In this document: piece by piece, positions 9,001 through 12,000 of the stretch | Layout of the letters: every line of letters starts with the position of its first letter | Numbering within the stretch: position 1 is the first letter of the stretch | Virus record (IMG/VR): IMGVR_UViG_2850761752_000002 | Length of the DNA: 13,719 nucleotides | Source: a virus | Lineage: Duplodnaviria; Heunggongvirae; Uroviricota; Caudoviricetes | Direction: 5' to 3' (one strand) | Position numbers: made by a program

Positions 9001-12000
9001 GAAAAACGGCCTTGAACTGAAAGCGCCTGTAACTGATGACATCAGCAGAGCACTGGCTTTTGCCATTAAGTGGGTGGCGGTCGGTGTTGCTGTGTCCCCG
9101 ATGCTGTATGGGCTGGCAAAACTGGTCATTGCGTTGAAATCGTGAAGGGAGGATTAAGCATGTCAGACAAACTCATAACGCTGGCGAAGATCCTCTGTGT
9201 AATTGTCGGCATTTCATTTTCACTAATGCTGGTTGCTCTTTTTCTTTCCATGGCCTGGATGATGTTGTCTTCGTCGGGGCTGCTGGGGTGAACATAAACC
9301 GAATGCTTTCCGCGTTTACCGTTATTCTGCTGGTGGTCTGTGGTGCGCTGTGGCTGGCAACAGACCATTACCGTGATAACGCCATCACCTACAAAGCGCA
9401 GCGCGATAAAAAAGCCAGAGAGCTGGAGCTGGCAAACGCAACCATTACTGACATGCAGCAGCGCCAGCGTGATGTTGCCGCTGGTCGTAAGCGCCTGCGG
9501 ATCAACGCCACCTGCTCCGGTACCGTGCGTGAAGCCACCGGCACCTCCGGAATGGATAATGCAACCGGCCCCCGACTGGCAGACACCGCTGAACGGGATT
9601 ATTTCACCCTCAGAGAGCGGTTGATGACAATGCAGAAGCAACTGGAAGGGGCGCAGGAATATATCCGCACTCAGTGTATTAACTAGTATTTTTGTTATCC
9701 GGAGAATGCATGAAGAAATTACTGGTAACCGTAAAGCCTTTTCAGGGAACAATTCCGTTCCGTATTTTGCAGCGTGGTCGTGTTCTTGTTGAAGGTTCGT
9801 TCAGTGGTAAATGTACGCAATTACACTCCCGGACCTTTCAGGTGAATGCCACGAATGAAGAGCTAACCGTTGAGTGTACGATGAATGCCGCTAAATGCCG
9901 CATGGTATCCGCTGCATTACAGCCAGTGTGTTGAGCGACCTTATTAACCATGCGCGGTATTGTCGCCGTATCCCCGCATTAACAGAGACCGCAGCCCGAC
10001 CGGGAGACTCCTCTGCGCGAGTGTGCGGGGATAATCAAAAACGATACACACCGGGGTTTACCGCGTTAACGGAGCGCGGCGTTGTCCCCTCATGGTCGCT
10101 GGTCCGGTGCGATGGTGGAAGAAACCGGACGATGTGTTACCTCGCAAGCTCTGTTATGTCATGTGTCTGATTTGTGATTTAAGTCGGATAATTGTCGTTG
10201 CCATTAAGCAGAGGATTGATGACCGACAGGGTGGCATTGTTAGAATAAGACTTATTCTTATCTGTGCCGGGAATGAAAATGAAAAGAAACCTTCCGTTAA
10301 TTATTTTGTTGTCTTCTCTGGTTATGGGCTGTACGCAACATAAAACAGATATGCCCCGACAGTTGGTTAAGGCATTACCACAATATCCGGCCTATGCAGC
10401 GGCAAATTATATAAAGGGACGGGTTGATGTGAAGTTTGATATTGGTGCTGATGGTACTGTCACCCGAATTGAGTTTATCCGTTCAGAGCCGCACCATTTG
10501 TTTGATGAGCAGGTTGTAAAGGCGATGGCAAAATGGCGATTTGAGAAGGACAGGCCGTGTAAAGGCGTGAAGAAAACGTTTATCTTTAGTCCTTCTGCAC
10601 CCTGATTATTTCATCAGAAATTAATTATCACTCTGTTGTTATTCTGTACATCCCGGCAGGGTAAGTCTTGTTCCGTCGGATATGAAGATGAAATATTGTT
10701 GGAGGACAGTGGGTACCTGCTCCTGTAACCGAACGTTCATTTCTCGTTATTTTTCATGCTGGCCGGGCGCAGATGCGTTGCATCTGTTGCCAGCCTTCTC
10801 CTGCAGGCTTCAATAACCCACGCTGAAAAGTTTCCTGAACCTTTCAGATCAAGAGCGATGTTAATTTGTTCAATCATCTGGTTTGGAAATCGGATGTTGC
10901 GGGTTGTTGTTCTGCGGGTTCTGTTCTTTGATGACATAATGTTTCCCCATATTCAGTGTTGCTGATTTGTATTATCTGAAGTTGCTTTTACGTTAATTTG
11001 ATGCAGATCAATCAATACGATAGTAAGCGTCAACGGAGCACCGTATTGACGCTTATTTATTGGTGAGTGCTACGTTCCATGGCAGGAGTTCGTCAACACG
11101 GTTGGAAGGCCATTCCGGCAGTACGCTCAGGATATAGCGCAGATACGCTTCCGGATCGATACCGTTCAGTCGGCAGGTGCCGATCAGCCCGTACAGTAGC
11201 GCACCACGCTCTCCACCGTGATCGCTGCCGAAGAACATAAAGTTTTTCTTTCCGAGACAGACTGCACGAAGCGCTCTTTCCGCGGCATTATTATCCGCCT
11301 CAGCCAGACCATCATCACTGAAGTTGCACAACGCAACCCAGTGCTTCCTGATATACCGGAACGCATCTCTCAGACGGCATTTTTTCGATAACGTGTGTTC
11401 TTTCTCCTGCATCAGCTTATACAGGGAAGTCAGTAGCGGTTTACTCTGCATTTGCCTGACCGCCAGGCGTTCAGACACCGGCAACCCGCGTATTTCGTGC
11501 TCGATGGCGTACAGCTCACCGATTAGTTTCAGGGCTTCTTCCGCTGTCGCGCTTTTGGTACTGATATATACATCGTGGACTTTGCGCCGCGCATGAGCCC
11601 AGCATCCTGCTTCCGTCAACGCGCCGCCTTCTCGTTCGGCACTGAACAGCCGATCGTAACCATTAAACGCATCTGCCTGCAGGATACCCCGGAAGGGACT
11701 AAGGTGCTGCTCCGGATGTTTACCCTGATGGTCCGGTGAGTAGGCGAACCAGACCGCCGGAGGCTCTGGCGAACCGGCATTCCTGTCATCCCGGACATAC
11801 GTCCAGATATATCCTGTTTTCGCCTTCTTCCTGCCCGGTGCCAGCACTTTTACTGGTGTGTCATCAGTGTGAACTTTGCGGCTGTTCATTACATAACGGT
11901 ACAGAGCATCATTCAGCGGCGTCATTAACTGGCAGCACGCGTCAACCAAGTTGGAGAGTAATGCACGGCTCAGTTCGACACCCTGACGGGCAAAAATTTC

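What the first reader, a model, noticed from the sequence alone, without database searches (positions are those of the whole stretch)
10216..10275. Perfect 17-bp palindrome over the predicted promoter of the lipoprotein gene
AGAATAAGACTTATTCT (10242-10258) is an exact 8-1-8 dyad overlapping a plausible -10 element and likely transcription start, 15 bp before the ATG. This is the architecture of an operator for a dimeric repressor. The convergent RHH-like gene at 10737-10937 is a candidate regulator, which would make this a small regulated accessory module (moron).
Basis: seen in the sequence. Interest (0 to 1): 0.5.

Follow-up and report, generated by a model that had tools for sequence, protein, structure and literature searches.

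The report
Palindrome over a prophage moron promoter
The perfect 17-bp palindrome is real and lies over the likely promoter of a small prophage cargo gene (a lipoprotein carrying a TonB C-terminal domain), but only its left half is conserved and its right half is missing from the commonest relatives, so it is probably not an essential repressor site and it is not linked to the neighbouring YlcI gene.

Summary
**Observation.** AGAATAAG-A-CTTATTCT sits exactly at 10242-10258, overlaps the −10-like TGtTAGAAT (10238-10246), and ends 15 nt before the first ATG (21 nt before the RefSeq start at 10279).

**Chance.** About 0.47 such palindromes are expected per window. For this 80-nt stretch alone, P≈0.002.

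**Setting.** The gene is a genuine moron: a 595-bp cassette (10132-10726) between Rz and ylcI of a lambdoid prophage.

**Comparison of 216 loci gives three upstream types.**
- Type A (the window's; 416 of 5,426 complete E. coli genomes) keeps the dyad. Its right arm collects SNPs at the background rate, while the left arm and −10 core (10234-10251) never vary.
- Type B (phage 21; about 1,400 genome records) keeps the left arm and has lost the right arm by deletion.
- Type C (one contig) keeps the symmetry through two double-sided changes and one T·G position.

**Other results.**
- The dyad is single-copy in a complete 57-kb phage.
- It matches no recalled regulator consensus convincingly.
- As RNA it folds weakly (−4 kcal/mol).
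- YlcI occurs widely without the dyad, and type C keeps the symmetry without ylcI.

**Verdict.** The left arm is most likely the promoter −10 core. The palindrome itself is a dispensable, lineage-specific feature. A weak hairpin or an orphan operator remain possible. Low to moderate interest.

The parts
10242..10258 (.). Perfect 8-1-8 palindrome AGAATAAG-A-CTTATTCT (the finding).
   Evidence: It is single-copy in the window and in the complete phage JLK-2012.
10234..10251 (+). Invariant core GCATTGTTAGAATAAGAC. It holds the extended -10-like TGtTAGAAT (10238-10246), the left arm of the dyad, the centre base and the first base of the right arm (C10251).
   Evidence: No variable site here among the type A loci, against about 14 variable sites in the other 56 nt of 10205-10278. 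ATTGTYAGAATAAGAC is kept in type B although the flanks are unrelated. The hexamer reads TAGAAT, CAGAAT and TAAAAT in types A, B and C.
10251..10258 (+). Right arm CTTATTCT. It is the dispensable half, and falls at about -2 to +6 if transcription starts near 10253.
   Evidence: Positions 10252-10266 are deleted in type B. SNPs occur at 10252 (T>G) and 10257 (C>T) within type A. In type C it reads CTGTTTT and still pairs with the changed left arm.
10216..10224 (+). -35-like segment. TTGATG (10216-10221) is kept in types A and C but lies 19 nt from the hexamer. The scan's ATGACC (10219-10224) is 16 nt away.
   Evidence: ATGACC itself varies within type A (ATGGCC, ATGATC, ATGCCC). 10223-10234 is hypervariable between the window and L087, as a promoter spacer would be.
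10173..10188 (+). Conserved block TGTGA-N6-TCGGA. It is CRP-like (8 of 10) and is followed directly by an invariant GATAAT.
   Evidence: It sits 68, 67 and 69 nt upstream of the -10-like hexamer in types A, B and C, although the DNA between them is unrelated. The CRP assignment rests on a consensus I recalled from memory, so it is a lead only.
10279..10605 (+). Cargo gene: a 108-aa lipoprotein (lipobox LVMGC) carrying a complete TonB C-terminal domain. An alternative in-frame ATG lies at 10273.
   Evidence: Pfam TonB_C, 1.3e-14. Residues 24-104 align with PDB TonB chains including 2GRX_C and 2GSK_B. RefSeq calls it 'TonB family protein', WP_000828068.
10132..10726 (+). The moron cassette, as it differs from the empty-site phage L003.
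   Evidence: Pairwise BLAST. The junction sequences show the direct repeat AACCGGACG (10123-10131) and AACCGAACG (10727-10735). GC is 39-46%, against 52-65% in the left flank.
It is a conserved neighbour, not part of the cassette.
10406..10433 (-). Strong antisense promoter-like site inside the cargo ORF (TTCACA, 16 nt, TATAAT; 11 of 12), pointing back towards the start codon and the dyad.
   Evidence: Equivalent sites occur at the homologous place in phage 21 and in L088. It may simply reflect the conserved codons for the peptide NYIK.

Best explanation
The left arm of the palindrome is the -10 region (extended -10, TGtTAGAAT) and start-site context of the moron's own sigma-70 promoter. That promoter lets the prophage express the TonB-C-terminal-domain lipoprotein during lysogeny, and during lytic growth the gene is also read through from the late promoter. 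The right arm makes this core palindromic in two of three lineages, but it is not needed for the module to persist. The palindrome as such is most likely a dispensable, lineage-specific by-product: a quasi-palindrome kept or perfected by intrastrand template-switch mutation. It is unlikely to be an obligatory operator. Shown: the dyad itself; the cassette structure; conservation of the left arm only; loss of the right arm in type B; single copy; no tie to YlcI. Inferred: promoter activity; a start site near 10253; lysogenic expression; neutrality of the right arm.
For: (1) Among 216 loci, the core 10234-10251 is invariant in type A, and ATTGTYAGAATAAGAC is kept in type B, whose neighbouring upstream sequence is unalignable. 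If the roughly 0.25 variable sites per nt seen in the flanks applied here, the chance of none in 18 nt would be about 0.006. That estimate is rough, because the sites are not independent events. (2) The right arm has 2 variable sites in 8 nt, which is the background rate. (3) Type B lacks the right arm through a 14-15-nt deletion. It includes the classical phage 21, all 104 type B loci with enough flank, and roughly 1,400 E. coli genome records, against 416 genomes with type A. (4) Promoter-like sites are called at the homologous place in types A and C. A hypervariable 12-nt stretch (10223-10234) sits between conserved TTGATG and TGtTAGAAT, as a promoter spacer would. A conserved upstream block keeps a fixed 67-69-nt distance from the hexamer. 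(5) There is no second copy in the window or in the 57-kb phage JLK-2012, whose cI-cro operators are unrelated. (6) The RNA hairpin is weak: -4.1 kcal/mol, z = -1.3, and no U-tract.
Against: A perfect 8-1-8 palindrome in this particular 80 nt has P about 0.002 by chance. Type C keeps all seven stem pairs at the homologous columns despite 7 of 17 changed bases, with two double-sided changes and one T.G. Only 21 of 500 shuffles reach this, and composition alone gives P about 0.005. The commonest right-arm SNP in type A (C>T at 10257) would still give a G.U pair. Together these hint that the symmetry was selected in lineages A and C. The promoter is only a consensus match, with a poor -35, and no transcription start data could be found. 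Type B did not pass the promoter scan.
Confidence: 0.42

Rival explanations
1. RNA hairpin. On the + strand transcript (late read-through from pR', or a start upstream of 10242), AGAAUAA-GAC-UUAUUCU forms a 7-bp stem about 10-20 nt before the ribosome-binding site and adjusts the stability or translation of the cargo mRNA. Type B has lost this control.
For: Type C keeps 7 of 7 pairs, with G-C>A-U, A-U>G-C and U-A>U-G. The only position that loses complementarity (8-10) cannot pair in a hairpin anyway. The T.G position and the 10257 C>T variant are tolerated only as G.U pairs on the + strand. The hairpin appears in the minimum-free-energy folds of 101-nt stretches of types A and C.
Against: The stem is very weak: -4.1 and -2.6 kcal/mol, z = -1.3 and -1.7, with 22 and 14 of 200 shuffles folding as well. 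It does not cover the Shine-Dalgarno sequence, and no Rfam family matches. If the moron's own start is near 10253, the left arm is not transcribed from that promoter. All the covariation comes from a single contig. One type A variant (10252 T>G) breaks a pair. Type B does without it.
Confidence: 0.25
2. Operator. A dimeric repressor, host-encoded or encoded elsewhere on the phage, binds the dyad centred at about -3 and blocks RNA polymerase, keeping a potentially costly TonB-domain lipoprotein off until a signal arrives. Type B is a derepressed or otherwise rewired derivative.
For: The symmetry is perfect and locally improbable. The position over -10 and +1 is classical for repression. The symmetry is retained in type C. 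An inference from established TonB biology also fits: a periplasmic TonB C-terminal domain would compete with TonB and so ought to be regulated.
Against: The right half-site evolves at the background rate and is deleted in the major lineage. The half-site differs at 2 of 7 positions in type C, which a fixed host regulator would have to tolerate. There is no second site in a whole phage genome or in the window. No recalled consensus (Fur, Zur, ArgR, CRP, FNR, RcsB, LexA, PurR, NagC) fits the dyad in more than one lineage. The scan of species-level genomes gave only scattered hits in unrelated taxa.
Confidence: 0.18
3. YlcI (DUF3950) is an RHH repressor that binds this dyad, making a two-gene regulated module.
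For: The two genes are convergent neighbours. 87 of 96 type A loci were scored as having ylcI within 700 bp, and at least the L080 group among the other nine carries a diverged ylcI that the motif missed. The predicted secondary structure of YlcI, an extended segment followed by two helices, is compatible with RHH.
Against: ylcI-like DNA is in 4,344 of 5,426 genomes, against 416 with the dyad. It is present at the empty site (L003) and next to another cargo (L004). Type C has the dyad symmetry and no ylcI. L057 has the dyad with a disrupted ylcI. There is no dyad-like site at ylcI's own promoter. No RHH match appears in Pfam or PDB sequence searches, and the model is poor (pLDDT 60).
Confidence: 0.04
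4. Fur box: iron-dependent repression of a TonB-related gene.
For: The best match to the 19-bp consensus in type A lies on the dyad (13 of 19). The link to iron uptake makes thematic sense.
Against: 7% of shuffles reach 13 of 19. Types B and C have no match at that place (10 and 12 of 19, elsewhere). The dyad contains no NATWAT hexamer (and direct reading). The consensus was recalled from memory.
Confidence: 0.03

Closest known systems
Lambdoid 'morons' with their own promoter (the concept from the HK97/HK022 comparisons; lambda bor and lom are examples expressed in lysogens)
   Same: A small cargo gene sits between conserved late genes (Rz and the ylcI/Nu1 region). There is an empty-site allele and alternative cargo at the same junction. 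GC is lower than in the left flank. A promoter-like element lies just upstream. The product is a cell-envelope lipoprotein, like Bor.
   Different: No intrinsic terminator was found after the gene. The gene is co-oriented with late transcription, so a private promoter is not strictly required. The cargo (a TonB C-terminal domain on a lipoprotein anchor) is uncharacterised: no paper was found.
Palindromic operators overlapping the core promoter (for example LexA, Fur or TrpR boxes, and the 17-bp lambdoid CI/Cro operators)
   Same: A 17-bp dyad with 8-1-8 geometry, centred near -3 relative to the inferred start.
   Different: Only one half is conserved among orthologous promoters. There is no cognate protein, no second site and no consensus match. 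The cI-cro operators of a phage carrying it (JLK-2012) are unrelated.
Quasi-palindrome template-switch mutation hotspots in E. coli (established mutational mechanism, from my own knowledge)
   Same: A short AT-rich inverted repeat whose arms change together between lineages, and which is removed by a deletion ending at the dyad centre in another lineage. An IS1 has also inserted into it in strain 14EC017.
   Different: No direct evidence of the mechanism here. It is offered only as a selection-free route to the 'compensatory' changes.

Membership tests
Repressor operator overlapping a promoter | Dyad symmetry of suitable length | tested here: met
   Perfect 8-1-8 palindrome at 10242-10258. Local chance P = 0.0017.
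Repressor operator overlapping a promoter | Overlap with a functional -10 element and start site | tested here: inconclusive
   Only consensus matches are available. The hexamer is conserved in all three lineages. No start-site data were found.
Repressor operator overlapping a promoter | Both half-sites conserved in orthologous promoters | tested here: not met
   The right arm is deleted in type B (104+ loci, including phage 21) and carries SNPs in type A. Type C keeps the symmetry but not the sequence.
Repressor operator overlapping a promoter | A cognate regulator, or further sites (regulon or autoregulation) | tested here: not met
   Single copy in the window and in a 57-kb phage. No consensus fit.
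RHH regulator-operator pair (YlcI) | Ribbon-helix-helix fold of the protein | tested here: inconclusive
   Only DUF3950 is hit in Pfam at E up to 10. No PDB sequence match. The AF2 single-sequence model has pLDDT 60, with two helices after an extended segment.
RHH regulator-operator pair (YlcI) | Co-inheritance of regulator and site | tested here: not met
   ylcI is widespread without the dyad. The dyad symmetry occurs without ylcI in L088, and the perfect dyad occurs beside a disrupted ylcI in L057.
Fur box | Match to the 19-bp consensus or GATAAT hexamers, kept across lineages | tested here: not met
   13 of 19 in type A only (p about 0.07); 10 and 12 of 19 elsewhere in types B and C. The consensus was recalled from memory.
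Moron | Discrete insertion between conserved phage genes, with an empty-site allele | tested here: met
   The cassette is 10132-10726. L003 joins the flanks directly, and L004 carries other cargo at the same site.
Moron | Own promoter and own terminator | tested here: inconclusive
   A promoter-like site is present. No terminator-like site lies between 10606 and 10726.
Moron | Base composition different from the neighbours | tested here: met
   39-46% GC, against 52-65% in the Rz and junction region. The right flank is similar to the cassette.
Intrinsic terminator | G+C-rich stem followed by a U-tract | tested here: not met
   The 7-pair stem has one G-C pair, and the tail is UUAUCUGUG. The scan does not report it.
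Structured cis-regulatory RNA | Covariation in several independent lineages and stability above background | tested here: inconclusive
   Two covarying pairs, both from one contig, with 21 of 500 shuffles reaching this. z = -1.3. No Rfam hit.

The most novel reading that the evidence does not exclude
The symmetry is selected. It would be a lineage-specific switch, either an RNA hairpin kept by compensatory change or an orphan operator, that gates expression of a phage-borne, outer-membrane-anchored TonB C-terminal domain. That protein would act as a decoy for TonB boxes, blocking TonB-dependent phages and colicins at the cost of iron and B12 uptake. The abundant phage 21-type lineage would have deleted the switch and express the decoy differently.
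Probability: 0.2. Interest if true: 0.5.

Novelty: new member of a known kind. Interest (0 to 1): 0.25.

Why it matters
Taken alone, the dyad is a minor regulatory detail of one prophage cargo gene. It matters mainly as a pointer to that gene. A lipoprotein-anchored, complete TonB C-terminal domain is carried between Rz and cos by lambdoid prophages in roughly a third of complete E. coli genomes: type A in 416 of 5,426 genomes, and type B in about 1,400 records, including phage 21, O157:H7 and EPEC E2348/69. I could find no study of it. If the protein interferes with TonB-dependent receptors, then how and when it is switched on would affect phage and colicin exclusion and iron acquisition in pathogenic E. 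coli. Types A and B would then be natural regulatory variants (dyad present versus deleted) that are ready to compare.

Tried and rejected
- **Further copies of the dyad.** The window has none at up to 3 mismatches. Phage JLK-2012 has none at up to 3 mismatches.
- **CI/Cro operator.** Rejected. The cI-cro intergenic sequence of JLK-2012 shows no resemblance.
- **Known RNA family.** None in 9650-11050, even at E up to 5.
- **Intrinsic terminator.** Rejected.
- **Upstream small ORF ending in the left arm.** Phage 21 annotates a 45-aa ORF whose TAA stop lies in GAATAAG. In the window that frame is closed by a TAA at 10180-10182, leaving 16 codons at most, so the ORF is not conserved (direct reading).
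- **EvrS/Esr023 sRNA of CP-933N.** It lies between the Q-like regulator and the esterase gene (PMC11774850), which corresponds to the STnc100 hit at 3476-3666, not to this locus.
- **More lineages.** The species-level protein scan found nothing. The IMG/VR, metagenome and E. coli genome searches added no fourth type and no second type C.
- **Conservation of the dyad block in L087.** The 43-nt identical run is only the fourth longest, so it is not significant.
- **Literature.** Nothing on the cargo gene, its expression or YlcI.
- **Truncated match in strain 14EC017.** The match ends at 10257 because of an IS1 insertion.
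Full report
**1. The observation**

The 17-mer AGAATAAGACTTATTCT occupies 10242-10258 and is a perfect 8-1-8 inverted repeat. It is the only match in the window even with three mismatches allowed. It overlaps the only + strand sigma-70-like site reported between 9700 and 11200: ATGACC, 16 nt, TAGAAT, with a TG extension, at 10219-10246. The number of such sites in that region is no higher than in shuffles.

Two in-frame ATGs follow, at 10273 and 10279. RefSeq uses the second, which has the better spacing from GGGA at 10269-10272.

Window-wide, the palindrome is not surprising. Shuffles give 0.47 perfect 8-N(0-1)-8 palindromes, and 35% of shuffles have at least one. Restricted to this 80-nt promoter-proximal stretch, the probability is 0.0017. 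Counting my rough estimate of 15-20 such stretches in the window, that is a few per cent.

**2. The setting**

The window is the late region of an IS-riddled lambdoid (Stx-phage-like) prophage. It holds three tRNAs, an STnc100 sRNA match, an esterase gene, a lysozyme gene (8274-8807), Rz (9288-9686), the cargo gene, ylcI (10737-10937, minus strand), and then an IS66-family transposase gene.

The cargo protein has a lipoprotein signal peptide (LVMGC). Residues 24-104 align with the whole TonB C-terminal domain, including the chains solved with FhuA and BtuB.

Comparison with related prophages defines a 595-bp cassette, 10132-10726.
- In L003 the flanks are joined directly.
- In L004 a different small gene occupies the same site.
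- The cassette is bracketed by AACCGGACG (10123-10131) and AACCGAACG (10727-10735), and the empty site holds a single copy.
- Its GC content (39-46%) is below that of the left flank (52-65%).

**3. Comparative evidence**

I collected 216 loci encoding relatives of the protein, from IMG/VR, metagenomes, isolate genomes and phage records. Their leaders fall into three types.

*Type A* is the window's type, with about 110 loci. It occurs in 416 of 5,426 complete E. coli genomes, among them O157:H7 86-24, O111, O103, O145 and EPEC E2348/69. It has the dyad.

*Type B* has about 106 loci and a protein about 72% identical to the window's. It includes the classical phage 21. Its gene is matched in roughly 1,400 genome records. 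Its leader reads ATTGTCAGAATAAGAC-CCGTAGGAATAAAAATG. The left arm and the −10-like hexamer are intact, and the right arm is removed by a 14-15-nt deletion.

*Type C* is a single 1.8-kb contig (L088), with a protein 71% identical. It reads AAAATAG-AGC-CTGTTTT at the same columns.

The B and C proteins are closer to each other (85%) than either is to A. The long form is therefore probably ancestral, and type B is a deletion derivative.

*Variation within type A*. The 74 nt from 10205 to 10278 hold about 14 variable sites.
- None lies in 10234-10251 (GCATTGTTAGAATAAGAC).
- Two lie in the eight bases of the right arm: 10252 T>G and 10257 C>T. That is the background rate.

Against the 90%-identical sister L087, eight differences cluster in 10223-10234, directly before an identical run of 43 nt (10235-10277). 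Runs of that length are not unusual in this comparison.

The constrained element is therefore the left arm together with the TGt extension, not the palindrome as a unit.

*Promoter-like features.*
- A promoter-like site is called at the homologous position in types A and C, but not in type B.
- An invariant block, TGTGA-N6-TCGGA followed by GATAAT (10173-10192), keeps a distance of 67-69 nt from the hexamer in all three types, although the sequence between them is unrelated.

Both are what a promoter with an upstream factor site would look like. The CRP-like label rests on a consensus I recalled from memory and is only a lead.

**4. Evidence that the symmetry may nevertheless matter**

Type C differs from type A at 7 of the 17 columns, yet it keeps all seven pairs that a hairpin could form. 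The changes are G-C to A-T, A-T to G-C, and T-A to T·G. The only pair lost (8-10) is sterically impossible in a hairpin.

In the formal count, two pairs have changes on both sides, 95.5% of cells are paired, and 21 of 500 shuffles reach this. Slid registers fall to 37-70% paired. By composition alone, seven pairs at that fixed place have P≈0.005. The commonest right-arm SNP in type A would still leave a G·U pair.

This pattern fits a + strand RNA hairpin better than a fixed protein site. However, all of the covariation comes from one contig.

The stem is also weak: −4.1 and −2.6 kcal/mol, z = −1.3 and −1.7. It has no U-tract, does not cover the ribosome-binding site, and matches no Rfam family. 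If the moron's own start is near 10253, the left arm would not be transcribed from that promoter.

Concerted arm changes can also arise without selection. Template switching at quasi-palindromes is an established mutational mechanism (from my own knowledge).

**5. Tests of the operator idea**

- No second copy exists in the window.
- No second copy exists in the complete 57-kb type A phage JLK-2012, where 0.27 matches at up to 3 mismatches are expected. Its cI-cro operators are unrelated.
- Recalled consensus sequences for Fur, Zur, ArgR, CRP, FNR, RcsB, LexA, PurR and NagC do not fit the dyad in more than one lineage. Fur reaches 13 of 19 in type A only, p≈0.07.

*YlcI.* The type A-ylcI association (87 of 96 loci scored) follows from adjacency. 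The remaining evidence points away from a functional link.
- ylcI-like DNA occurs in 4,344 of 5,426 genomes.
- It occurs at the empty site and beside other cargo.
- Type B never has it (0 of 104).
- Type C keeps the symmetry without it.
- L057 keeps the perfect dyad beside a disrupted ylcI.
- An RHH fold could be neither confirmed nor excluded.

**6. Verdict**

The most likely reading (about 0.4) is that the left arm is the −10 core of the moron promoter and the palindrome is a dispensable, lineage-specific by-product. A weak RNA hairpin (about 0.25) and an orphan operator (about 0.2) remain open. YlcI and Fur are unlikely.

The feature is a new example of a known kind, and its interest is low to moderate. 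The cargo gene it points to is more interesting than the dyad. It is a widespread, apparently unstudied lipoprotein carrying a complete TonB C-terminal domain.

Noticed in passing
window 10279-10605: The cargo is a lipoprotein-anchored, complete TonB C-terminal domain, carried by lambdoid prophages in roughly a third of complete E. coli genomes and by phage 21. No study of it was found. PHROGs labels its family 'Rz-like spanin', which looks like an annotation by position. It has no PADLOC match. A role as a decoy for TonB boxes, excluding TonB-dependent phages and colicins, is my inference and was not tested.
   Followed up: partly
window 10123-10131 and 10727-10735; L003 2424-2432; L004 2431-2892: The 595-bp cassette is flanked by a 9-bp direct repeat, AACCG(G/A)ACG, and the empty site has one copy. 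A different cargo (a 46-aa ORF) sits at the same junction in L004. The junction lies at the 3' foot of a conserved hairpin (GTCCGGT...ACCGGAC, about 10102-10130). This looks like a recurrent moron insertion point.
   Followed up: partly
window 9951-10131: A conserved non-coding segment of about 180 nt with G+C-rich hairpins. TonB-carrying and TonB-lacking lambdoid phages share it, upstream of whatever cargo follows. The sequence is too conserved to show covariation (2 of 35 predicted pairs), and there is no Rfam match.
   Followed up: partly
window 10173-10192: An invariant block, TGTGATTTAAGTCGGATAAT (CRP-like, 8 of 10, then GATAAT), lies at a fixed 67-69 nt from the -10-like hexamer in all three lineages, although the DNA between them is unrelated.
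   Followed up: partly
window 10406-10433 (minus strand); L171 2628-2655; L088 987-1014: A near-consensus antisense promoter-like site (11 of 12; TATAAT) lies inside the cargo ORF and is kept in all three lineages. It points towards the start codon and the dyad. It may only reflect the conserved codons for NYIK.
   Followed up: no
window 10273-10284: The hexamer ATGAAA at the start codon varies in copy number among type A loci: one copy (L162, L322), two (the window) or three (L058). This gives N-termini MKR, MKMKR or MKMKMKR, and it changes the spacing between the Shine-Dalgarno sequence and the ATG.
   Followed up: no
window 4998-5017: A second perfect palindrome, TATCACTTAAATAAGTGATA (9-2-9), lies inside an IS2 copy. 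Window 4966-5306 matches the IS2 annotated in L001 at 98.8%. The IS2 interrupts the esterase gene, so this palindrome belongs to the IS and not to the phage.
   Followed up: yes
window 3476-3666: An Rfam STnc100 match (139 bits) lies between the tRNAs and the esterase gene. This is the same genomic position as the EHEC sRNA EvrS/Esr023 described in prophage CP-933N (PMC11774850).
   Followed up: partly
window 5307-6600 (minus strand), from about 11022 onwards, and 12440-13719: The prophage is riddled with insertion sequences. Two IS3-family copies carry ALIL frameshift pseudoknots (6165-6281 on the minus strand, and 12787-12903 on the plus strand). An IS66-family element, whose end GTAAGCGTCAACGG begins at about 11022, separates ylcI from the terminase genes.
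   Followed up: partly
L437 (E. coli 14EC017) 1560-1700: An IS1 has inserted inside the dyad (...AGAATAAGACTTATTC|GGTGATGCC...), and the rest of the prophage is deleted.
   Followed up: yes
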